A stretch of 64,000 bases of DNA, from contig CP086569.2 of the NCBI GenBank assembly GCA_009914755.4, forward strand, positions 23,904,001-23,968,000. Direction: 5' to 3'. The position numbers and the translations under genes are program-made. The notes beneath the pieces were generated by a model, which ran no database searches, had not been told where the DNA came from, and saw only the letters and a program-made list of their open reading frames with translations. The number at the start of each line of letters is the position of its first letter. Position 1 is the stretch's first letter. Origin of the DNA: the human T2T-CHM13v2.0 reference genome, Homo sapiens. Below are positions 8,466 to 33,357 of the stretch, piece by piece.

Positions 8466-8757
8466 TTCTTTTTTTTAGAGAGGGTCTTGCTCTGTCATCC
8501 AGGCTGGAGTGCAGTGACATGATCAAATCTCACTGCAGCCTCCAAATCTCAGGCTCCAGCAATCCTCTCATCTCAGCCTCTCAGATAGTCAGGACTACAG
8601 GTACATGCCACCATATCTGGCAATTTTTTAATTTTTATTTTTTGTAGAGACAGGGGCTCACTGTGTTGCCCTGGCTCAAACTTCTAGCCTCAAGTTATCT
8701 TTCCATCACAGTCACCCATAGTACTGGGATTACTGGCACGATCCCCTGTGCCTGGCC
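8466..8757 (-). mobile_element. Alu SINE (AluS-like), minus orientation
   Basis: T-run then agagagggtcttgctctgtcatccaggctggagtgcagtg...ctgggattactggcacg..cctggcc, which is the reverse complement of the Alu consensus. Most CpGs are decayed. Confidence 0.85.
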
Positions 8758-9011
8758 TTTCTTTGTTAAAATTCGCCTCTAAGTGGCAGCCCTTGAAATG
8801 TATTTCTAAACTGCTGTGAACAATTAAGTTTGATTTTTTTAAAAAAGTAAGAAGAAACCCGATTATTCAGACCTTGCACTAATTCAGGCTTTCCTTCCTA
8901 CCAACCAGCCCCTTTTAAGATGGTCTCATGAGTTATTAGCATCTTCATCAATGTGTCAACAAGAATGACTACCTACATCTGCACAACAGTTTTCAAGATA
9001 TTTCCATGGTT

Positions 9012-10577
9012 ATTATTCTCTTATCTGGCCCCACCCACATCCTGCTGATTGGTCCATTTTAGAGAGAGCCGATTGGTCTGTTTTACAGAGCGCTGAATGG
9101 TCTGTTTTGACAGGGTGCTGACTGGTGCATTTACAATCCCTGAGCTAGACAAAGAGGTTCTCCACATCCCCACTAGATTAGCTACATAGAGAGTGTCGAT
9201 TGGTGTATTTACAAATCCTGAGCTAGACACAGAGTGCTGATTGGTGCATTTACAAACCTTGAGCTAGATACAGGGAGCCAACTGGTGCATTCACAATCCC
9301 TTAGCTAGACATAAAGATTCCCCAAGTCCCCACCAGATTAGCTAGACACAGAGCTCTGATTGCTACACTTACAAACCTTTAGCTAGACACAGAGTGCTGA
9401 CTGGTGCATTCACAATCCCTTAGCTTGACATAAAGGTTCTCCAAGTCCCCACTAGATTAGCTAGATACAGAGTGCCAATTGGTGCATCCACTAACCCTGA
9501 GCTAGACACAGTGTGCTGATTGGTGTGTTTACAAACCTTGAGCTAGATACAGAGTGCTGATTGGTGTATTCACAATCCCTTAGCTAGACATAAAGATTCT
9601 CCAAGTCCCCACCAGATTAGCCAGATACAGAGTGCCGGTTGGTACATCCACAAATCCTGAGCTAGACAGAGGGTGCTGATTGGTGTGTTCACAAACCTTG
9701 AGCTAGATACAGAGTGCTGATTGGTGTATTCACAATCCCTTAGCTAGACATAAAGACTCTCCAAGTCCCCACCAGATTAGCTAGATACAGAGTGCCGGTT
9801 GGTGCATCCACAAACCCTGAGCTAGACACAGGGCGCTGATTGGTGTGTTCACAAACCTTGAGCTAGACACAGCGTGCTGATTGGTGCACTCACAATCCCT
9901 TAGCTAGACACAGAGGTTCTCCAAGTCCCCACTAGACTCAGGAGCCCAGCTGGCCTCACCCAGTGGATCTTATACCAGGGCCACAGGTGGAGCTGCCCGC
10001 CAGTCACTCACCGTGCGCCTGCACTCCTCAGCCCTTGGGCGGCCGATGGGACCAGGCACCATGGAGTAGGGGGTGGCGCTCGTCCAGGAGGCTCAGGCCA
10101 TGCAGGAGCCCATGGCGGTTGGGGGAGACTCAGGCATGGTGGGCTGCAGGTCCCAAGCCCTGCCCCGTGGGGAGGCAGCTAAGGCCGGGTGAGAAATCCA
10201 GCACAGCGCTGGTGGGTCAGCACTGCTGGGGGACCCGGCACACCCTCTGCAGCTGCTGGCCTGGGTACTAAGTCCCTCACTGCCTGGGGCTGGCAGGGCT
10301 GGCCGGCCACTGCAAGTGCAGGGATCAGCAAGCCCACACCCACCCAGAACTCTAGCTGGCCCACAAGCACTGCACGCAGCCCTGGCTCCCACCCCTGCCT
10401 CTCCCTCCACACCTCCCCGCAAGCTGAGGGAGCTGGCTCCGGCCTCGGCCAGCCCACACAAGGGCTCCCATGGTGCAGTGGAAGGCTGAAGGGCTCCTCA
10501 AGCATGGCCAGAATGGGCGCTGAGGCTGAGGAGGCACCGAGAGTGAGCCAGGGCTGTCAGCATGCTGTCACCTCTCA
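9012..10577 (-). mobile_element. LTR12 (ERV9 LTR), the 3' LTR of the provirus. It lacks about 420 bp of R-U5, including the AATAAA and the terminal ...CCGGACACA.
   Basis: Homology to the other LTR starts at ttattctcttatctggccccacccacatcctgctgattggtcc (compare 16606-16660). The minus-strand 5' end is TGAGAGGTGACAGC at 10577, preceded by the purine-rich ctgccaggggggat. The segment matching 16176-16605 of the other LTR is absent, and 8758-9011 is unique non-LTR DNA. Confidence 0.85.
9030..9900 (-). promoter_or_regulatory. ERV9 U3 enhancer-type tandem repeats (about 40-bp units, about 20 units) carrying CCAAT boxes (gctgattgg on the plus strand) and GATA-like motifs
   Basis: Repeating tgagctagacacagagtgctgattggtgcatttacaaacct / ...tcacaatcccttagctagacataaag... 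units. A hand count gives about 11 intact ATTGG/CCAAT copies. The ERV9 U3 repeats are an established NF-Y/GATA-binding enhancer. Confidence 0.6.
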
Positions 10578-10993
10578 ATCCCCCCTGGCAGTTTTGGAGA
10601 GTCACTGCTGCCAAAGAGTCTATTTGGGATTATAAAGTAAGAACAGATTTCGCTATTTCTTGCAAACTGTCTGAGATATCCTTGGAGAGTGTGTGGTAGT
10701 AGGATAATGAAGTAGATAAACCACATATTCTGGTTCCTGTAGCCATAGCCATTCCTAACCCTTTAAGGAGGGGTATTAGTTGTATGGCTCTGCACTGACA
10801 GACTTGAGCTTTGAGGGGTACTGATAAGGTCTGATTTCCTGGGGCAATGATAATGTTGGGACTTAGACTAAGGTGCAGGTGCCTGTCAAGTTAGTGGGGA
10901 GGCAGATACAGGTCGTTGTTCCACATAAGAAGAATCTGCCTTGTCTGGGTAGACAGAACTTAACCCTGGCTTTTAAAGGAATAGTGTACACTG

Positions 10994-11205
10994 TTTTTTT
11001 TTCTTTACTATTTCTTTCTCTCTCTTTCTCTCTTCAACTCCTTCTTTGTCTCTTCCTCTCTTTTTAACTCTCTCTTTGACTTTCTGTGTCTGTCCCTCTT
11101 TCTCTCTGACTCCTTCTCTTTGTCCCTCTGTTCCTTCCTCTCTCTCTCTCTTTCTCTGACTTTCTTTTTCTCTCCTTCTTGCTGGTCTTTCCCTACCTCT
11201 GCCAG
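10994..11205. repeat. CT-rich (polypyrimidine on plus) low-complexity tract inside the provirus, where IN/env would be expected
   Basis: Direct reading: tttctttctctctctttctctcttcaactccttctttgtctcttcctctc... Confidence 0.8.
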
Positions 11206-11271
11206 TCACTCATGCTGCTGTTCTCCCCTCTTCTTCCCATTTTGATGGCTTTGGCAGTGTAAGAGTGCCAC

Positions 11272-11574
11272 CTACTTGTGTTTTTGCATTGCATGCAATA
11301 ATTCTATAATTTCCTTGTGGCATTTAACAGGGGTTCCCCCAGAGGTTAGGAACTCCCTCTCTTTCCATATTGCAGCATGGGCATGTAGGATTAGATAAGC
11401 ATATTTGCTATCTGTATACACATTTATTCTTTTTCCCTTTCCCAGTTCTAAGGCTCGGGTAAGTGCCACTAGTGCTGCTAACTGGGCACTGGTCCCTGGG
11501 GGAAGAGGCTTACTTTCAAGTATGGATACATCACTAACTATGGCATAACCTGCCCTTCGTATCCCATTCTCCAT
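11272..11574 (-). pseudogene. HERV9 pol remnant: RNase H domain
   Basis: The minus ORF reads ...LPPGTSAQLAALVALTRALELGKGKRINVYTDSKYAYLILHAHAAIWKEREFLTSGGTPVKCHKEIIELL. It is collinear with MLV RNase H ([38 protein letters not shown]...[20 protein letters not shown]). Confidence 0.8.
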
Positions 11575-11640
11575 AAATGAACTTCCGTCGGTATATAGGT
11601 TAAGGTCAGGATTAGTTAAAGGGACTTCTAAGAGATCATC

Positions 11641-11913
11641 TCAGGCGGCAAAAGTCTGGACTATAATTTGTTGGCAGTCATGCTCGATTGGTTCCCCATC
11701 CTCTGGGAGAAAAGTGGCAGGGTTGAGGGCCATGCACATGAGTATTTGAAGCGCCAGTCCCTCAAGGAGTAGCACCTGGTATCTAAGTAGGTGGTTGTCT
11801 GATAGCCACAAACTTCCTTTGGCACCTAGTATGCCATTTACATCATGAGTAGTCCAGACAGTGAGATCCTTTCCTTGTATTATTTTGATAGCCTCTGACA
11901 CTAAGACGGCCAC
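11641..11913 (-). pseudogene. HERV9 pol remnant: RT connection/tether region
   Basis: The minus ORF reads ...HLLRYQVLLLEGLALQILMCMALNPATFLPEDGEPIEHDCQQII. It resembles MLV ...[38 protein letters not shown]..IL. Confidence 0.7.
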
Positions 11914-12445
11914 TGCTGCAGCTACCCTTAAACAGTGAGGGCAGCCTTTTGCTACTACATCAATTTCCTTACCTAGGTATGCCCCTGGTTGTGGGGTTGT
12001 CCCACGAGTCTGAGTAATGACTCCAAGAGCTATCCTAGCTCTCTTTGTGAAGTATAAAGAGAAGTTTTGTCCTGTGGGAAGGCTTAAAGCTGGAGCTTCT
12101 ACTAGGGCCTGCTTTAAGGTTTTGAAGGCTGTTTCTGCCTCTGGTTCCCATTCTACTAGATGAGTATTTGCCTTCTGGGTTTCCTTGATTAGAGTATAGA
12201 GGGGCCTGGCTATCTTGTTGCATCTGGGGATCCACAGTCGGCAAAAGCCAGTAATTCCAAGGAACCCCGCAACTGTTTTAATGTTTTAGGGTGGGGATAA
12301 GCCAGTAGAGGCTGTATTCATTCCTTGCTGAGGGCCCTGGTCCCTCTGGCTAAGATTAGGCCTAGATATTTGACCTGCTCTAGGCAAAGCTGGGCCTTCG
12401 ACCTAGACACCTTGTACCCTTGATTAGCTAGAAAGTTCAAGAGAT

Positions 12446-12909
12446 CTAGAGTAGCCTGCTGGCATGAGGCTTCCAAACTGGTAGCCAAAATAAATCATCC
12501 ACATACCAAAGGACCAGAGTGCCTGGACTTGAGAAGTGGCCAAGATCTTGGGCCAGTGCCTGATCAAACAGGTGAGGGCTATCCCTAAACCCTTGGGGCA
12601 AGACCGTCCATGTTAAGTTGGGACATGTGGTTTGTGGGATCCTCAAAGGCAAAGAGGAACTGGGAGTCAGAGTGCAGGGGAATACAGAAGAAGGCATCCT
12701 TGAGGTCCAGAAGCATGAACCATTTTGCTTCCTCTGGTATTTGAGAGCAGGGTATCGGGGTTGGGTACAACTGGATATAGAGGAATTACTGCCTCATTGA
12801 TGAGTCTAAGATCTTGCACTAGTCTCCACTGACCGTTTGCTTTTCCTACTCCTAGGATTGGGGTGTTGCAGGGATGGCTGCATTTCCTTACTGAGCCTTG
12901 AGCTTTCAA
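12446..12909 (-). pseudogene. HERV9 pol remnant: reverse transcriptase (fingers/palm) in overlapping frames, which shows frameshifts
   Basis: The minus ORFs contain [28 protein letters not shown] (MLV [28 protein letters not shown]), [29 protein letters not shown] ([31 protein letters not shown]) and [11 protein letters not shown] (the YVDD catalytic motif). Confidence 0.85.
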
Positions 12910-12943
12910 ATGTTTAACAATATTCTGTAGCCCTTTATTAGCT

Positions 12944-13210
12944 TCAGGCCTTAAGGGATAGTCTTTGATAAGGAAAAGTGGTGGGATCTTTTAAACTGAT
13001 TTGGACTGGGTGGGCATTTTTTGCCCTTCCAAATTGTCCTTCCAATGCCCAGACTTCAGGGTTGATTCCCTCCTCAAGTAGGGGACAACAAATGGGTAAG
13101 TTCTTCCCCATATTCATGTAGATAATAGCTCCAGCCTTGGCTAATATACCCCTCCCTAATAAGGGTGTGGGACTTTCAGGCATAACAAGAAAGGGATGTG
13201 AAAAGACCAA
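12944..13210 (-). pseudogene. HERV9 pro remnant: protease C-terminal part and start of RT
   Basis: The minus ORF contains PLLGRGILAKAGAII, which resembles the gammaretroviral protease LLGRD(L/N)L motif. It lies immediately upstream of the RT on the minus strand. Confidence 0.55.
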
Positions 13211-13961
13211 AGTCTCCCAATTACAACTCAGGAGGTGGGAGAAATACCTGGTAACAGGTTGTCCCAGGATTCCTCAGATGGTAACGGACCTTGAGGACAG
13301 TCGTCCAGGACCAGAGATTAACACTGAGAATGCCGCACCAGTGTCCAGGATGAAGTCAATTTCCGGGCCCTCAATAGTTAAACATACCCGGGGCTCAGTG
13401 TGGGTGATGGCATGAGCTGGTGCTTGCCCGGGGCACCCTCAGTCCTGTTGTTGGATTATCTGGTTGGGGGCTTCTGACCCAGGAAAACTTCATCCTCTGG
13501 GGCAGTGCACCTTCCAGTGATTGTCTCAGTGTAGTGGACATGGACGAGGGGGCAGCTTGTTTCTCATTGGACAATCTTTTTTAACGTGTCCTAGTAAGCC
13601 ACACTGATAACAAGCCCTACCAGGTGATTGGACTGCTCCATTTTCTGTCCTCTCTGAATCACCAAGGTTTGTTTATCTCAGGGCCAGGACTAAGGCTGCA
13701 GCCTTTCTCTGACCTCGCTTTTCCTTTTGGGCCTGTTCCTCTTGGTCCCTATTATAGAACGACGAGGTTTGCCAGGTTTAATAATGCCTCTAGATTTTGT
13801 TCAGGGCCCAGGGCTTGCTTTTGGAGCTTTCTCCTGATAGCTGTGGCTGATTGGGTAATAAATTTATCTTTTAGAATCAATTGACCCTCGAGGGATTCAG
13901 GCGAGAGGGGAGTATATATTCTTAAGACCTCTCGTAGCTGCTCGAGGAAGGCAGAAGGATT

Positions 13962-14643
13962 TTATTCCTTTCCCTGTGTTATGGTGGACATCACTGAATA
14001 ATTCATGGGCTTTTTTCTAATCCTCCGTAGTCCCTCTAGAACACAGGTCAACAGATGTTTACAACTCCAGTCCCCATGATCTGAGTCAAGGTCCCAGTGG
14101 GGATCCATACTGGGGATGGCTTGCTGACCAGTAGGGAATTTGTGCCTTTCTTCAGCTGTCATTCTATCATTTACTGACTAAGATACCAGGTATCTCCAAA
14201 CTCTCAGGCTGCAGCTAAAGCCACATTCTTTTCATTAAAGACCAGGGTTTGATCTAAGAGTAGCATGACATCTCTCCAAGCGAGGTCAAAGGTTTGCCCT
14301 AGACCCTGTAGGACATCTACGTACCTATCAGGATCATCTGAAAACTTCCCCAGGTCTGCCTTGATCTGCTTTAAATCAGAGAGGGAGAAGGGGACATGCA
14401 CCTGGGTTGGGCCAAGTTCTCTGCCCCCTACAGCTTGAAGGGGACATAACCGATTGCCTGGGGGGCGGGTTGTGGTCCTCTGGAGATTTCTTTGCTTATT
14501 TCCTTCTGGGCAGGGGAGATTAGAGGAGGATTATCATTCATAGGAAGGGGAGCTATAGGGAGGCTAGGATATGGGGGTAAGCTGAGAGGTCCTCCTGTGG
14601 GATGTAAATTGTAAGCTTTGCATAGTTGTGTATTCTCCCTCAA
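13962..14643 (-). pseudogene. HERV9 gag remnants: three ORF fragments, including a PPPY-type late domain
   Basis: The minus ORFs are 14428-14643 (...GGPLSLPPYPSLPIAPLP...), 14204-14401 and 13962-14162. They lie between the leader and PR in the order expected for gag. The assignment is by position and composition. Apart from the PPPY-like motif there is no strong motif. Confidence 0.55.
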
Positions 14644-14949
14644 TGAAAAGAAAGCTTGGACATAAGGTATTTCACTCCATTTGCCTTCCCTCTTACAGAA
14701 AAGGTCAGGATGCAGGATAGTATTGTAATTTCTACTTCCCTCACGTGGCCATTTTTCCCCATCAAAGAGGGAATATTGGGACCAAGCCGTAGTGCAGAAA
14801 AAAAATGAGCCACCTCTTTTTCAGGGTTTGTGGGTTAAATTGGTCCCAATGGTTTAGCATGCATTTCAAGGGTGAGCCTGTTGATGCCTGAGTGTTTCCC
14901 ATCTGAAAGACAAAACCGCCTGCGGTTTTGGTTTGTTTTGTTTCTCCCC

Positions 14950-15266
14950 CTGCCCTAGAACCCGCAACGGTCCCTGGACCCTGCTGATCAGAATAGTTGC
15001 ACTCACCAACGCATCAGCAGAAACAACCCCTGCCCAGGAACCCACAATGGTCCCTGGACCCTGCTGGTCAGAATAGTTGTGCTCACCGACGCTGCAGCGG
15101 AAACACTAGCTTTCCTTCCAGACCACATGGAGGACTGAGGAAGGTCGGTCCTTACCGATGCATTCTCAAAAACCTGCACCCTTGCCTGTCCTCCTAGACC
15201 ACAAAGAGGACAGACTGAGAAAAATCGGATTTAGTGGCCCTTACCGACACATTCTTAAAAACCTGT
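14950..15266 (-). repeat. Two adjacent tandem duplications (about 78 bp x2 and about 80 bp x2) in the proviral 5' leader
   Basis: ctgccctagaacccgcaacggtccctggaccctgctgatcagaatagttgcactcaccaacgcatcagcagaaacaac is followed by a near copy. ...ccttaccgatgcattctcaaaaacctg... is then followed by ...ccttaccgacacattcttaaaaacctg... Confidence 0.6.
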
Positions 15267-16154
15267 TAGAGTCCTAAGCATTCACCTTTTAGTGTTGGGA
15301 CTTTACCCCTGTCCTATACAGATGTTATGCCCCAAAAATGAAGTGGAGGGCCATACCCTGAGGGAGGGAGGGGATCTCCAGGGTGGAAGAGTGACACATT
15401 TTGTCCTCACTTACATGAATAGGAAGGATACAATTTCTGAGGCTCCCCATATCCTAGCTTCAGGAATAGTTTTTGTTAGGCCTATTAGTCGGAGGAGGGA
15501 TCCTAAAATTCCAGGTAGTCCCCACTACGACAGGGCTTTGGGCAAAAGTTATGTCTTTCTGATTGGTGAGCCCAGGTGCCTGAAGAAAGTAACAGAGTCC
15601 TGGACTTTATACTAGAAATCATTCTTATAGGAGAAACTAGAAAAGCACCAGAGACAGGTAACAATTTTTAGAAGGAGGACTAACCTCAGAGAAGAGAGTC
15701 AAGAGGAAGTTTGTGTGGCAAGCATTTGGACACAGAGGGCAAGGGTCAGGGATAGATAAGATAGATGGGTGAGTCTCGCTTGGGCGACATGCCTTTGAGA
15801 GTTCCACTCATGGCCGTAGGGTCAACCAACGTGTTGTCGGGACCCCGGAGCTGAATGGCTTTCCTCTCTGTTGACCCTCGGCTGAGCCCAGAAGTACAGG
15901 AAAAGCAGAAGCTTGTTCTAGGCAAACCAACGCTCCCAACTCCGAAGAGCTGGGGGTTGTTAGAGAGCCCATTTCCAGAAAGCCTGACACCCGTGTCTTT
16001 AGTCCGGTGGCCACACTAGTCGCTTTTAGCTGGCCGACAGGTGCCCGATATTTAACCCCCGAATTCTAAGGAAAATAGGATAGAATAGCAAGTGAAAGGG
16101 GTCTGATGGTACTCACTGCTTGGTGACAGGCGACAGTCTCACCGCTTGGCGATA

Positions 16155-16172
16155 GTCCCTTCGTGGTCACCA
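16155..16172 (-). other. Primer-binding site, tRNA-Arg type (minus strand TGGTGACCACGAAGGGAC)
   Basis: Plus gtcccttcgtggtcacca lies 3 nt inside the LTR end (minus ...CCGGACACA ttt TGGTGACCACGAAGGGAC). It is complementary to a ...GTCCCTTCGTGGTCGCCA-type tRNA-Arg 3' end with one mismatch. This is the PBS type of ERV9. Confidence 0.7.
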
Positions 16173-16529
16173 AAATGTGTCCGGAATTGGTGGGTTCTTG
16201 GTCTCACTGACTTCAAGAATGAAGCCGTGGACCCTTGTGGTGAGTGTTACAGTTCTTAAAGGCAGCATGTCCGGAGATTTTCCCTTCTGGTGTGCGGATG
16301 TGTTTGGAGTTTCTTCCTTCTGGTGGGTTTGTGGTCTCGCTGGCTGATGAGTGAAGCTGCAGACTTTCGCGGTGAGTGTTACAGCACTTAAGGCAGCACG
16401 TCTGGAGTTGTTCGTTCCTCCCAGTGGGTTCATGGTCTCGCTGGCTTCAGGAGTGAAGCTCCAGACCTTTGCAGTGAGTGTCACAGCTCATAAAGGCAGT
16501 GTGGACCCAAAGAGTGAGCAGTAGCAAGA

Positions 16530-16535
16530 TTTATT
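16530..16535 (-). promoter_or_regulatory. AATAAA polyadenylation signal of the 5' LTR (minus strand). The corresponding part is missing from the 3' LTR.
   Basis: Plus tttatt within gcaagatttattgcaaagagc, which on the minus strand reads GCTCTTTGCAATAAATCTTGC. Confidence 0.6.
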
Positions 16536-16649
16536 GCAAAGAGCAAAAGAACAAAGCTTCCACAGAGTGGAAGGGGACCCGAGCAGGTTGCCACTGTGGG
16601 CTCAGGCAGCCTGCTTTTATTCTGTTATCTGACCCCACCCACATCCTGC

Positions 16650-17235
16650 TGATTGGTCCATTTTAGAGAGAGCCGATTGGTCTGTTTTACAGAGAGCCAA
16701 TTGGTCTGTTTTACAGAGAGCTGATTGGTCTGTTTTGACAGGGTGCCGATTGGTGCATTTACAATCCCTGAGCTAGACGCAAATGTTCTCCACCTCCCCA
16801 CTAGATTAGCTAGATACAGAGTGTCGATTGGTGTATTTACAAACCCTGAGCTAGACACAGAGTGCTGATTGGTGCATTTACAAACCTTGAGCTAGATACA
16901 GAGTGCCGACTGGTGCATTCACAATCCCTTAGCTAGACATAAAGATTTTCCAAGTCCCCACCAGATTAGCTAGATACAGAGCTCTGATTTGGTGCATTTA
17001 CAAACCTTGAGCTAGACACAGAGTGTGGACTGGTGCAGTCACAATCCCTTAGCTGGACATAAAGATGCTCCAAGTCCCCACCAGATTAGCTAGATACAGA
17101 GTGTCGGTTGGTGCATCCACAAACCCTGAGCTAGACAAAGGGTGCTGACTGGTGTGTTCACAAACCTTGAGCTAGACACAGAGTGCTCATTGGTGCACTC
17201 ACAATCCCTTAGCTAGACACAAAGGTTCTCCAAGT
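16650..17235 (-). promoter_or_regulatory. ERV9 U3 tandem enhancer repeats of the 5' LTR (about 14 units, fewer than in the 3' LTR)
   Basis: The same about 40-bp units as 9030-9900. A hand count gives about 8 intact ATTGG copies. The array is about 580 bp here and about 870 bp in the 3' LTR. Confidence 0.6.
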
Positions 17236-17407
17236 CCCCACTAGATTCAGGAGCCCAGCTGGCCTCACCCAGTGGATTTCACACCGGGAGGCAGGTGGAG
17301 CTGCCCACCAGTCCCTCACCATGCACCCACACTCCTCAGCCCTTGAGTGGTCAATGGGACCGGGTGCCCTTGAACAGGGGGCGGTGCTCACTGGGGAGGC
17401 TCAGGCC

Positions 17408-17525
17408 AGGCAGGAACCCATGGTGGGGAGGGGGGGTGATGGCGGGGACTGAGGGGGGTGGCAGGAGGGATTGGGTGGGTGGGAGCGGTTGGGGGGGGCG
17501 GTTTTGTGAGGACAGCGGCGGAGGG
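17408..17525 (-). repeat. G-rich (plus) or C-rich (LTR sense strand) insertion of about 115 bp, present only in the 5' LTR
   Basis: gggagggggggtgatggcggggactgaggggggtggcaggagggattgggtgggtgggagcggttggggggggcggttttgtgaggacagcggcggagggcgggcggcggtacgggtg. It lies between cccatggtgg and agcctcaggcatgg. In the 3' LTR (10111-10135) these two motifs are nearly adjacent. Confidence 0.75.
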
Positions 17526-18181
17526 CGGGCGGCGGTACGGGTGTGGAGCCTCAGGCATGGGGGGCTGCACGTCTGGAGCCCTACCGCACGGGGAGGCAGC
17601 TAAGGCCCGGCGAGAAATCGAGGGCAGCACCAGTGGGCCAGCCGTGCTGGGGGACCCGGTGCACCCTCACAGCTGCTGGCCTGGGTGCTAAGCACCTCAC
17701 TGCCTGGGTACAGCAGGGCCGTCTGGCTGGCTGCTCCGAGTGCGGGCCTGCCAAGCCCACACCCACCCGGAACTCAAGCGGGCCCGCAAGCGCCGGGAGC
17801 AGCCCCGGATCCCCCCGCCGTGCCTCCCCCTCCATACCTCCCACAAGCGGAGGGAGCCGCCTCCAGCCTCGGCCAGCCCAGAGAAGAGCTCCCATGGTGC
17901 AGCGGCAGGCTGAAGGGCTCCTCAAGTGCAGCCAGAATGAGCACTGGGGCCGGGGAGGCACCGCGAGCAAGCGAGGGCTGCCAGCACGCTGTCACCTCTC
18001 ACTAAGACAGAGATTCTCAAGTTTTTCCAGTTCACAGCTCCCCTAGTATCTCTATAATTTTTTCATGGCACATACAGGTCAAAATAAATACCCCAAAATT
18101 TGTTTATGAATTAGTCAGGCCCAAATAATTTACCAATTATTTATGTCCTGAAAACACAGTGGCCACTTCAGGAAAAAATAA

Positions 18182-18552
<371 letters not shown>

Positions 18553-31400: not shown

Positions 31401-31782
31401 AAATAGTCTAAGTTTTGACAAGGGTATGCCATTGCTGACACTGGCCAAGAGGAAGCTGGAGTGGCTGAGCAGTTTTCTGAGAGCCAAAACCCAACTCTGT
31501 GTGTGAGTTTTCAGCCACTACAAAGGCCTTACCACAAGTTTGTTCCATGGGTCCTCCCCACCGGCCTCGGTGCACAACCAGAACCAGAGCACACAGTCCC
31601 CTAGGGGAGTTGTATCAAAGACTCACGTCCCCCCGCACTTATGTTCTTACACATACCTGCATTCCCAGCCCAGATACGTCCATGCAGAGGTCCCCGGATC
31701 AGGAGGGTCCTGGCAGAGGTCTTTCTTGGCTGCCTCTACTAGACACCAACTTCTTGAGGGTAACCTGAAAAACATGCTTTTC

Positions 31783-31980
31783 TCTCTTCTTCTTCTTCTT
31801 CCTCCTCTTCTTCTTCTTCTGCTTCTTCTTCTTCTTCCTCTTCTCCTTCTTCTTCTTCCTCTTCCGCTTCCTTCTCTTCTTCTTCCCCTTCTTCCTCTTC
31901 TTCTTCTTCTTTTTTCTTTTCTTCTCATTCTCCTCCTCCTCCTCCTCCCCCTCCCTCCTCCTCCTCCTCTTCTTCTTCTT
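31783..31980. repeat. (CTT)n/(CCT)n polypyrimidine microsatellite (GAA/GGA on the other strand), about 200 bp, followed by about 23 T
   Basis: Direct reading: cttcttcttcttcctcctcttcttcttcttctgcttcttc...ctcctcctcctcctccccctccctcctcctcctcc. It is contiguous with the Alu 3' fragment at 32004-32085 (minus strand), so it is an expanded Alu tail. Confidence 0.9.
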
Positions 31981-32003
31981 TTTTTTTTTTTTTTTTTTTT
32001 TTT

Positions 32004-32085
32004 GAGACTGAGTCTCATGCTGTCGCTTAGGATGGAGTGCAGTGGCGCGATCTCGGCTCACTGCAACAACCTCCGCCTCCGCGGT
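32004..32085 (-). mobile_element. Alu 3'-end fragment, minus orientation. Its tail is the poly(T) plus the (CTT)n array.
   Basis: gagactgagtctcatgctgtcgcttaggatggagtgcagtggcgcgatctcggctcactgcaacaacctccgcctccgcgg. Confidence 0.7.
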
Positions 32086-33357
32086 CCTCAGTATTAAGTA
32101 TCTTCCACTCCTAGCCTTCCCCAAACTCCCACCCTTCACCACAGGGTCCATAAATTCCCAGCAACAGCGAAATAGCAGGAGGCTCATGTTCGGCAGTCCG
32201 TCTCGCTAAGCAGGGAGATGATCATCCCCATACCCCAAACTCCCCTCCTCTGAGCTGCTCCATGGGGGAAAACATGGAACATTCTGGGAGCTGGCACTTC
32301 TTCCTTTTTTGCTTCTTGCTTATACTGTTGCATAAGTGAATAAAGTCTTGATGGTTTCTTTTTTTTTTTTCTTTTTAAGTTTGGCCGTTTTCTTAACTGA
32401 CCACGTTAAAACCTGGCAGCTCAGCTCTCTCTCCAGCTGAGCCCTCGACAGAGGCTATATTAATATACTAAAAGAAGTAAATCTTAGAGTGAAAAATGTT
32501 ACCGTAGGCAGAGAGTCATTTCAGCATGACAAATTGGTCAGTTAATGAAAATGTGACAATCCTAAGGGTTTAGGTACTTCATAACAGTGCTTCAAATACA
32601 TGAGGCAAAAACTAATAGATTGTAAGGAGAAATAAACACATCCATAATTGTAGCTGGGAATTTCAATAATCCTTTCTCGATAATTAATAGAACAAGTGGA
32701 CAGAAAATCAGCAAGGATATAACAGATTTGAACAATACTATCAAACAACTCCTAATTGACATTTTTACAACACTCCATCCAATGGCAGCAGAATATATAT
32801 TATTTTCAAGTACACATGGGCCATTTACAAAGACCAACTACATTCTGAGCCATAAAACCATTCTCAATATACGTAAAAAGATTCAAGTCATACAAATATG
32901 TTCTTTGACCACAGTGAAATTAAATTAGAAATCAATAGAAGAGGGATAACTGAAAAATACCCAAATATCTAGAAACTAAATAACATGCTTCTAAATAACT
33001 CACAGTTCAAAGAAGAAATCAAAAGGGAAATTACAAAATATTCTGAGGTGAGTGAAAATGAAAATACAGTATATAAGAATTTGTAGGATGCCACTAATGT
33101 TTGGCATCTAATACTAATACTAATGGAACTGTATAACACCAAATACCTATTTTACAAAAAAAAAAAAAAATGATTCAAGGCAATGACCTCAGGATCCATC
33201 ACAAGAAATAAATAATAAAAACAAGAGTGCACATTAAACTCAAAGGAAGCAGACAGTAGGAAATAATAAAGATCAAAAGAGAAATCAATAAAATAGAAGA
33301 CAAAAATAGAGAAAATCAACAAAAACAAAGTTGGTTTCTTGACAAGAAAAATAAAAT

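What the first reader, a model, noticed from the sequence alone, without database searches (positions are those of the whole stretch)
9012..18001. HERV9 provirus whose two LTRs differ strongly from each other
The two LTRs of a provirus are identical at integration. Here they differ in four ways. (a) The 3' LTR lacks the terminal R-U5 of about 420 bp, including the AATAAA. (b) The U3 CCAAT-repeat arrays differ in length, about 870 bp against about 580 bp. (c) Only the 5' LTR carries a G-rich insertion of about 115 bp. (d) In the U3-proximal 200 bp the point substitutions appear by eye to be above 10%. This exceeds what neutral decay of an ERV9 insertion would normally give. It suggests unequal exchange within the repeat arrays plus gene conversion or recombination with another ERV9/LTR12 subfamily copy, followed by a flank deletion.
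Basis: partly seen in the sequence, partly recalled or inferred. Interest (0 to 1): 0.55.

Follow-up and report, generated by a model that had tools for sequence, protein, structure and literature searches.

The report
Old, decayed HERV9 provirus; unequal LTRs

Summary
The provirus lies on the minus strand. The 5' LTR is 16176-18001 and the 3' LTR is 9013-10577.

- **Truncation:** the 3' LTR stops inside its TATA box and lacks about 441 bp of R-U5, including AATAAA.
- **Arrays:** the U3 repeat arrays are about 889 and 594 bp. The 3' LTR has exactly two extra 160-bp modules, and the 5' LTR has one extra 24-bp unit.
- **G-rich tract:** it is 126 nt in the 5' LTR and 13 nt in the 3' LTR.
- **Substitutions:** the first 200 bp of U3 differ by 13.8%.

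The claim that this exceeds neutral decay and needs input from another subfamily is not supported. Over 1230 orthologous sites the LTRs differ by 11.1%. Canonical HERV9 proviruses average 10.3 ± 3.6%. The excess sits in the CpG-rich unique U3, where CpG-context sites differ by 53% and other sites by 8.8%. Private changes are balanced (56 against 55) and scattered. The two LTRs group together among 54 other LTR12 copies. The G-rich tract is an indel hotspot that has also expanded in other copies.

Independent human-derived assemblies reproduce the unique U3 of both LTRs. The truncation junction could not be verified independently. Overall this is an ordinary, already known kind of element.

The parts
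16176..18001 (-). Complete 5' LTR (LTR12-type: U3-R-U5, TG...CA ends)
   Evidence: Reading of the sequence. Full-length homology to other LTR12 copies, with R-U5 91-92% identical to L089 and L052. Independent contigs L173-L178 are 100% identical over 17205-18260.
17424..17549 (-). C-rich (G-rich on + strand) 126-nt tract, expanded from a tract of about 13 nt; present only in the 5' LTR
   Evidence: Most other LTR12 copies have 13 nt here. Independent expansions are 23 nt (L121), about 32 nt (L151) and 46-53 nt (L103/L092). The + strand carries 12 G-runs of 3 or more.
16617..17247 (-). 5' LTR U3 repeat array plus promoter-proximal end. GTGGGG-anchored modules are spaced 160/120/160, with four 24-bp units.
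16530..16535 (-). AATAAA poly(A) signal in R of the 5' LTR (absent from the 3' LTR)
16155..16172 (-). Primer binding site TGGTGACCACGAAGGGAC. It matches the HERV9 PBS tggcgaccacgaagggac at 17 of 18 positions; the mismatch is a CpG transition.
   Evidence: PBS sequence quoted in PMC4724089.
11229..16059 (-). Leader-gag-pro-pol (RT, RNase H, start of IN), degenerate with many stops. About 94% identical to a reference ERV9 contig.
   Evidence: BLAST to L085 and L120. Pfam hits: Gag_p30, RVT_1, RT_RNaseH_2, RNase_H.
10961..11228 (-). 268-nt AG-rich low-complexity filler at the site of a deletion of about 2.57 kb (integrase plus env SU)
   Evidence: The junction at 10960/61 is identical in five independent contigs.
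10587..10960 (-). Remnant of env TM (up to the LQN motif before the immunosuppressive domain)
   Evidence: Pfam TLV_coat E = 9e-8. 91.6% identical to L085 7250-7631.
10578..10586 (-). Polypurine tract remnant AGGGGGGAT. About 508 nt between TM and the PPT are deleted at an AGGGG microhomology.
   Evidence: The canonical context TTTAGAGGGGGGAT|TGAGAGG is seen in 11 other proviral 3' ends, against GCCAGGGGGGAT|TGAGAGG here.
9013..10577 (-). 3' LTR, U3 only, truncated inside the TATA box. It lacks about 441 nt of R-U5.
9448..9767 (-). The two 160-bp array modules that have no counterpart in the 5' LTR
   Evidence: Anchor spacing is 160/119/160/160/160 against 160/120/160. Orthologous modules are 90.8-95.6% identical. 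The extra modules are 93% identical to each other and about 91-92% to their neighbours.

Best explanation
A single, old HERV9 (ERV9) provirus integrated in antisense orientation relative to the window, with identical LTR12-type LTRs. It has since decayed in place by four ordinary processes.

1. Point substitution dominated by deamination of methylated CpG in the very CpG-rich unique part of U3, about 640 nt long.
2. In-register gain or loss of whole repeat modules in the U3 tandem array, by replication slippage or unequal exchange. This accounts for two 160-bp modules and one 24-bp unit.
3. Stepwise expansion of a short C-rich tract that is an indel hotspot in LTR12 generally.
4. Deletions: two internal ones, plus one terminal deletion that removed R-U5 of the 3' LTR and probably some flanking DNA.

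Shown here: the anatomy, the distribution of differences, the grouping of the two LTRs, and the hotspot behaviour in other copies. Inferred: the order and mechanism of the events, and that the truncation is a deletion.
For: **Proviral order.** The order 5'LTR-PBS-gag-RT-RNaseH-(gap)-TM-PPT-3'LTR is shown by Pfam hits and collinearity with ERV9 contigs L085 and L120.

**Divergence is average.** It is 11.1% over 1230 orthologous sites (K2P 0.121). Canonical HERV9 chains average 10.3 ± 3.6%.

**CpG effect.**
- In unique U3, CpG-context sites differ by 53% and other sites by 8.8%.
- Of 53 inferred ancestral CpGs, 10 survive in the 3' LTR and 20 in the 5' LTR. Only 1 survives in both, consistent with independent decay in the two LTRs.
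- Both retention values lie within the range seen in the older solitary copies.

**Clock-like behaviour.**
- There are 56 changes private to the 3' LTR, 55 private to the 5' LTR, and 28 derived states shared by both.
- Terminal branches rank 8th and 5th of 56, so neither LTR is an outlier.

**Same lineage.**
- In the all-sites NJ tree the two LTRs are sisters. With CpG masked they form a clade of three with L112.
- In the promoter-proximal array they are closer to each other than to the closest outside copy, L067. There are 31 mismatches in 436 nt between the LTRs and about 43 in 435 nt between the 3' LTR and L067.

**Arrays.** They are collinear (160/119-120/160) and differ by whole modules. 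Array length varies from 170 to 604 bp among other copies. The literature gives 5-17 repeats of about 41 nt (PMC11853044).

**C-tract.** It has expanded independently in L121, L151 and L103/L092.

**Methylation.** LTR12 is CpG-rich and stays methylated in primordial germ cells (PMC11853044).
Against: - Bootstrap support for the two LTRs as strict sisters is weak: 47/100 with all sites and 28/100 with CpG masked.
- No substitution or indel is exclusive to the pair among the 56 sequences. The data therefore show the same lineage, not the same integration event.
- The target-site duplication cannot be checked because the 3' end is deleted.
- At non-CpG sites the 5' LTR has about twice as many private changes (31 against 17, p about 0.04). 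It nevertheless keeps twice as many CpGs (20 against 10, Fisher p = 0.05). This mild asymmetry is not explained by a simple clock.
- The 3' LTR has one cluster of private changes at U3 250-278 (run test p = 0.018).
Confidence: 0.8

Rival explanations
1. Chimeric provirus. Two different ERV9 proviruses of the same subfamily, lying nearby in the same orientation, were fused by a deletion or ectopic recombination. One possible join is the 10960/61 breakpoint. In that case the two LTRs were never a pair.
For: There are internal breakpoints with filler sequence. Sister bootstrap support is weak. No synapomorphies are exclusive to the pair. The target-site duplication is untestable.
Against: - Both LTRs share the module order 160/119-120/160, which no other sampled copy shows.
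- In the array and promoter region they are closer to each other than to any other copy.
- Private changes are balanced, with 28 shared derived states.
- Both sides of the internal breakpoint show similar divergence from the reference ERV9, 93.9% and 91.6%.
- A single decaying provirus explains everything with fewer events.
Confidence: 0.1
2. One LTR was partly overwritten by gene conversion or recombination with a copy of another LTR12 subfamily, which raised the divergence above neutral expectation.
For: Unique U3 is only 84% identical, with many small indels. The 5' LTR keeps more CpGs and has more non-CpG private changes. L121 shares a short GT(T)ACCGCCGCC motif with the start of the 5' LTR tract.
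Against: - Total divergence is average for HERV9.
- The differences are scattered. They are either private to one LTR or lie at recurrently decaying CpG sites.
- The run test finds no tract where the 5' LTR carries another lineage's derived states. The only significant cluster is a set of changes private to the 3' LTR, at a place where the 5' LTR has the majority state.
- The two LTRs cluster together.
- None of the 54 other copies carries the 126-nt tract.
Confidence: 0.05
3. Assembly artefact. The missing R-U5, the array lengths or the G-rich tract result from misassembly of repetitive sequence.
For: Tandem arrays and GC-rich tracts are prone to assembly errors. No independent contig spans the 9013 junction or a complete array.
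Against: Ten independent contigs reproduce 17205-18260, including the tract, at 99.6-100% identity. Five reproduce about 9880-11270 exactly. The array difference is an exact number of whole modules with diverged sequence, not a collapsed or duplicated identical copy.
Confidence: 0.03

Closest known systems
HERV9 / ERV9 proviruses with LTR12-family LTRs (class I, gamma-like; HERVW9 supergroup of Vargiu et al. 2016, PMC4724089)
   Same: LTR12-type LTRs beginning TGAGAGGTGACAG and ending CA. A U3 with 41-nt CCAAT/GATA/GTGGGGA repeats. The HERV9 PBS. gag-pol-env of the gamma type. 92-94% identity to other ERV9 internal sequences. LTR-LTR divergence at the family mean.
   Different: Nothing in kind. 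This copy has lost integrase, most of env, the TM-to-PPT segment, and R-U5 of the 3' LTR.
Variable U3 enhancer arrays of LTR12 (5-17 repeats of about 41 nt, subtypes 1-4; review PMC11853044)
   Same: Same unit types and the same 160-bp and 119-bp higher-order modules as other copies. Copy number differs by whole modules.
   Different: The 3' LTR array, about 889 bp or about 20 units, is longer than any of about 50 sampled copies (the longest is 604 bp). It also exceeds the quoted range of 5-17. The short-read assemblies used for comparison may under-represent long arrays.
Truncated LTR12 copies lacking their own transcription start site (for example the LTR12F upstream of HERV-K102, described in PMC11853044)
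   Same: A U3-only LTR12 fragment that retains the repeat array but lacks the TSS, R and U5.
   Different: Here the truncated copy is the 3' LTR of a provirus. No enhancer activity was tested.
Inter-element recombination between HERV proviruses (Hughes and Coffin type; cited from my own knowledge)
   Same: It would also give a provirus whose two LTRs are not a pair.
   Different: That class is diagnosed by mismatched target-site duplications and LTRs that fall in different clades. Here the duplications cannot be tested, and the LTRs fall in the same clade.

Membership tests
HERV9/ERV9 provirus | LTR12-type LTRs (TG...CA ends; U3 with tandem repeats of about 41 nt carrying CCAAT, GATA and GTGGGGA motifs) | tested here: met
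   Homology to more than 100 LTR12 copies recovered from human-contaminated metagenome contigs.
HERV9/ERV9 provirus | Family-specific primer binding site (tggcgaccacgaagggac) | tested here: met
   TGGTGACCACGAAGGGAC at 16155-16172 (-), 17 of 18 positions. Reference sequence quoted from PMC4724089.
HERV9/ERV9 provirus | Gamma-like gag-pro-pol-env in proviral order between the LTRs | tested here: met
   Pfam hits Gag_p30, RVT_1, RT_RNaseH_2, RNase_H and TLV_coat, in order, on the minus strand. Integrase and SU are deleted.
HERV9/ERV9 provirus | Nucleotide homology of the internal region to other ERV9 internal sequences | tested here: met
   92-94% over about 3.8 kb to L085 and L120, which end in the canonical ERV9 PPT followed by LTR12.
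Single intact integration event (paired LTRs) | Matching 4-5-bp target-site duplication at both ends | not testable with these tools
   The 3' end of the provirus is deleted. Only the 5' flank ...CTTAG|TGAGAGG is available.
Single intact integration event (paired LTRs) | The two LTRs are each other's closest relatives | tested here: inconclusive
   Sisters in the all-sites NJ tree, and a clade of three with L112 when CpG is masked. Bootstrap support is only 47 and 28 of 100. They are closest to each other in the array and promoter region. No synapomorphy is exclusive to the pair.
Named LTR12 subfamily (LTR12, 12_, 12B-12F) | Best match to a Repbase/Dfam subfamily consensus | not testable with these tools
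   No consensus library is available here. Both LTRs carry the 5' extension of about 640 nt that PMC11853044 describes for LTR12C, D and E. Both fall outside the young, CpG-rich cluster of LTR12 copies.
Gene-conversion or recombinant LTR | A contiguous tract carrying the derived states of another lineage | tested here: not met
   Run test. There is no tract for the 5' LTR. The single cluster (U3 250-278) consists of changes private to the 3' LTR.

The most novel reading that the evidence does not exclude
The two LTRs may have had different germline chromatin histories. The intact 5' LTR keeps twice as many ancestral CpGs (20 against 10 of 53). It has about twice as many non-CpG private substitutions (31 against 17). 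It also carries a 126-nt G-quadruplex-prone expansion. This pattern could mean the 5' LTR was hypomethylated and transcribed in the germline, protecting its CpGs but exposing it to transcription-associated mutation. The promoterless 3' LTR would have stayed methylated and lost its CpGs. Both asymmetries are only borderline significant (p about 0.04-0.05) and could be chance.
Probability: 0.1. Interest if true: 0.3.

Novelty: already known. Interest (0 to 1): 0.08.

Why it matters
It matters little beyond annotation. This is a worked example of why raw LTR-LTR divergence in CpG-rich, repeat-bearing LTRs such as LTR12 overstates both age and apparent anomaly. In the same provirus the CpG-rich unique U3 gives about 16% and the CpG-poor arrays give 4-7%. 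Dating or recombination calls on ERV9 should therefore partition CpG sites and exclude the arrays and the C-tract hotspot. The truncated 3' LTR keeps a very long CCAAT/GATA array of about 20 units without a promoter. It could only act as an enhancer, and that was not tested.

Tried and rejected
- **Genome-contig scan:** a scan of bacterial and archaeal genome contigs with a 17-mer gave 47 loci. All but one (L020) were chance matches.
- **Viral-contig scan:** no matches.
- **L105:** it first looked like an orthologue or paralogue that retains env where the window has a deletion. Its mismatches cluster at 10457-10513 and in the last 110 nt (10850-10944) before it leaves the window sequence. I therefore treat it as a probable chimeric short-read assembly and not as evidence.
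- **L168 and L169:** they seemed to show an R-U5 attached to the 3' LTR. Their mismatches are confined to the array and pol ends, while 9880-11270 is identical. These are again chimeric joins to other ERV9 copies.
- **The 9013 junction:** exact-ORF look-ups for four ORFs at or next to the junction found nothing. No fetched locus contains the junction or the flank.
- **Polarity of the two extra 160-bp modules:** I tried to decide between gain in the 3' LTR and loss from the 5' LTR using module identities. They are as diverged from each other as orthologous modules are, so this stays unresolved.
- **Exclusive synapomorphies:** I looked for substitutions or indels shared only by the LTR pair. There are none, so this gives no information either way.
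- **Other searches:** an Rfam scan of the window found nothing. No gene that would identify the locus was found.
- **Subfamily naming:** not possible without Dfam/RepeatMasker.


Full report
**What is there**

The window is primate (human-type) DNA with Alu elements on both sides of the feature. The feature is a provirus on the minus strand.

- **5' end.** Reading the minus strand from 18001, the sequence starts TGAGAGGTGACAG. More than 100 other LTR12 copies recovered here start the same way.
- **5' LTR.** It runs through a unique CpG-rich U3 of about 750 nt, a tandem array, a TATA-like GAATAAAAG, an AATAAA at 16530-16535, and U5, ending ...CA at 16176.
- **Primer binding site.** Three T residues follow the LTR, then TGGTGACCACGAAGGGAC at 16155-16172. 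This matches 17 of 18 positions of the HERV9 primer binding site quoted by Vargiu et al. (PMC4724089).
- **Internal region.** It gives Pfam hits in proviral order: Gag_p30, RVT_1, RT_RNaseH_2, RNase_H and TLV_coat. It is 92-94% identical over about 3.8 kb to two long ERV9 contigs, L085 and L120.
- **Internal deletions.** Relative to L085, about 2.57 kb (integrase and env SU) is replaced by a 268-nt AG-rich filler at 10961-11228. A further 508 nt between the TM region and the polypurine tract is missing, so the usual TTTAGAGGGGGGAT|TGAGAGG junction reads GCCAGGGGGGAT|TGAGAGG.
- **3' LTR.** It runs from 10577 down to 9013.

**Checking the four observations**

(a) Homology between the LTRs ends at 9013, which corresponds to 16617, inside the TATA-like box. 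The 441 nt corresponding to 16176-16616, including AATAAA, are absent. No R-U5-like sequence lies anywhere else in the window.

(b) The arrays measure 889 bp in the 3' LTR and 594 bp in the 5' LTR, from the end of unique U3 to the promoter landmark.

(c) The tract between CCATGCCTGAG and CCATGGG is 126 nt in the 5' LTR (17424-17549) and 13 nt in the 3' LTR.

(d) The first 200 nt of U3 differ by 13.8%, and the whole unique U3 by 15.8% with 15-16 gap events.

All four observations are confirmed.

Ten independent human-derived contigs reproduce 17205-18260, including the G-rich tract and the 5' flank, at 99.6-100% identity. Five others reproduce about 9880-11270 exactly. The junction at 9013 could not be checked in an independent assembly.

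**Is the divergence abnormal?**

Over all 1230 orthologous positions (unique U3, the distal module, and the proximal array plus promoter), the LTRs differ at 11.1% of sites, K2P 0.121.

Vargiu et al. report LTR divergence for HERV9 in their supplementary file 5:
- Canonical chains: 10.3 ± 3.6%, range 0.9-18.5, n = 82.
- Non-canonical chains: 21.7 ± 15.4%, n = 92.

They also give 11.5 ± 7.2% for a set of 16 recombinant HERV9 chains with two LTR12. This provirus is therefore average.

The divergence is very uneven, in the way that CpG decay predicts:
- Unique U3 has 15.8% mismatches. CpG-context sites differ by 53% and all other sites by 8.8%.
- The CpG-poor array modules differ by 4.1% and 7.1%.
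- Of 53 inferred ancestral CpGs, the 3' LTR keeps 10 and the 5' LTR keeps 20. Only one is kept in both, which fits independent decay in the two LTRs.
- Retention in the other copies ranges from 0.19 to 0.94. The two LTRs, at 0.19 and 0.38, sit among the low-retention, older copies.

The LTR12 review (PMC11853044) notes that LTR12 is unusually CpG-rich and stays methylated even in primordial germ cells.

**Same lineage or foreign input?**

One scan of metagenome contigs with a CpG-free 19-mer from U3 returned 120 human-contaminant contigs. Fifty-three of these cover the whole unique U3 and, together with L020 from the genome-contig scan, gave the 54 comparison copies.

- **Tree.** In a 56-sequence NJ tree the two LTRs are sisters with all sites. 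With CpG columns masked they form a clade of three with L112. They lie away from the large cluster of young, CpG-rich copies. Bootstrap support for strict sisterhood is weak, at 47 and 28 of 100.
- **Relative rates.** Against the majority consensus, the 3' LTR has 56 private changes and the 5' LTR has 55, with 28 derived states shared by both.
- **Branch lengths.** The terminal branches rank 8th and 5th of 56, so several solitary LTR12 copies are as decayed or more so.
- **Site by site.** The 121 differences are spread along the LTR. Thirty-seven are private to the 5' LTR and 22 to the 3' LTR. Fifty-three lie at sites where both states recur among copies, mostly C/T and G/A at CpGs.
- **Run test.** A GENECONV-style test found no tract where either LTR carries another lineage's derived states. 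The one significant cluster (U3 250-278, p = 0.018) is a clump of changes private to the 3' LTR, at a place where the 5' LTR has the majority state.
- **Array and promoter region.** The two LTRs show 31 mismatches in 436 nt. The closest outside copy, L067, shows about 43 in 435 nt against the 3' LTR.
- **Exclusive states.** No state is exclusive to the pair. This is expected if the provirus was a faithful copy of its source, and it means the sequence data alone cannot prove a single integration.

**The arrays**

GTGGGG-type anchors are spaced 160/119/160/160/160 in the 3' LTR and 160/120/160 in the 5' LTR, reading along the + strand. The 3' LTR therefore has exactly two more 160-bp modules (9448-9767). 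The 5' LTR has four promoter-proximal 24-bp units against three.

Orthologous modules are 90.8-95.6% identical. The two extra modules are 93% identical to each other and about 91-92% identical to their neighbours. They are therefore about as old as the integration. Whether the 3' LTR gained them early or the 5' LTR lost them cannot be decided.

Module number varies widely among other copies, from 170 to 604 bp. The literature gives 5-17 units of about 41 nt.

**The G-rich tract**

In the provirus orientation this is a C-rich tract. It is 13 nt long (CCTCCCACCCCCT) in most copies. It is 23 nt in L121, about 32 nt in L151, 46-53 nt in L103/L092, and 126 nt in the 5' LTR.

The 5' LTR tract still contains the CCCCCAACCG found in the 3' LTR. 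It also contains a degenerate copy of the neighbouring CTGAGTC...CGCCATGG motif. It is therefore a local, stepwise expansion of a family-wide indel hotspot, not imported sequence. None of the 54 other copies carries the expanded tract.

**The truncation**

The 3' LTR ends inside its TATA box and abuts unique sequence (8746-9012), with an Alu further out. The simplest reading is a deletion that removed R-U5, the target-site duplication, and an unknown amount of flank. Neither the mechanism nor the date can be determined here.

**Conclusion**

Array slippage and a terminal deletion are supported. The claims of divergence above neutral expectation and of input from another subfamily are not.

The best explanation is a single old HERV9 provirus decaying in place (confidence 0.8). 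A chimera of two proviruses of the same subfamily cannot be formally excluded, because the target-site duplication is gone (0.1).

Two mild asymmetries remain. The 5' LTR keeps more CpGs, yet it has more non-CpG private changes. Both are borderline (p about 0.04-0.05) and may be chance.

This is an already known kind of element and of low interest.

Noticed in passing
L020:7079-8000 (CAVXBB010000006.1, a 144.6-kb contig of an 'uncultured Acidobacteriaceae' MAG): A species-representative bacterial MAG contig carries a human LTR12 with an AT-rich, human-like flank. This probably reflects human contamination or a chimeric contig in the MAG.
   Followed up: partly
L105, L168, L169, L171, L172 (human gut and other metagenome contigs): Short-read metagenome contigs that carry this locus match the window exactly across their central part. 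They switch to other ERV9 copies in the array and pol parts at their ends; L105 also has a small internal cluster at 10457-10513. They are chimeric assemblies and could be mistaken for paralogues or orthologues.
   Followed up: yes
window 10961-11228: A 268-nt TC-rich (+ strand) low-complexity filler sits exactly where about 2.57 kb of integrase and env SU is missing. Its origin is unknown; it could be a microsatellite expansion at a deletion junction.
   Followed up: partly
window 10578-10600: A second internal deletion of about 508 nt joins the env TM 'LQN' region directly to the polypurine tract at an AGGGG microhomology.
   Followed up: partly
window 14947-15105: An 80-bp tandem duplication (2 copies, 86% match) lies between the PBS and the gag p30 hit, upstream of it. 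It is absent from the reference ERV9 contigs L085 and L120.
   Followed up: no
window 9040-9936: The 3' LTR array, about 889 bp or about 20 units of 41 nt, is longer than in any of about 50 sampled LTR12 copies. It also exceeds the 5-17 units quoted in the literature. Short-read contigs may collapse long arrays, so the comparison is biased.
   Followed up: partly
window 17424-17549: The expanded tract is 60% G on the + strand, with 12 runs of three or more G. It would be strongly prone to forming G-quadruplexes on the strand antisense to the provirus.
   Followed up: no
window about 31540-32190: A long CTT/AAG-rich low-complexity tract produces poly-Leu and poly-Lys/Arg/Glu ORFs of 162-185 aa on opposite strands. 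These are almost certainly not genes.
   Followed up: no
window 8500-8745 and 18230-18550: Alu elements flank the provirus on both sides. The one at 18230 is preceded by a long poly-T run.
   Followed up: no
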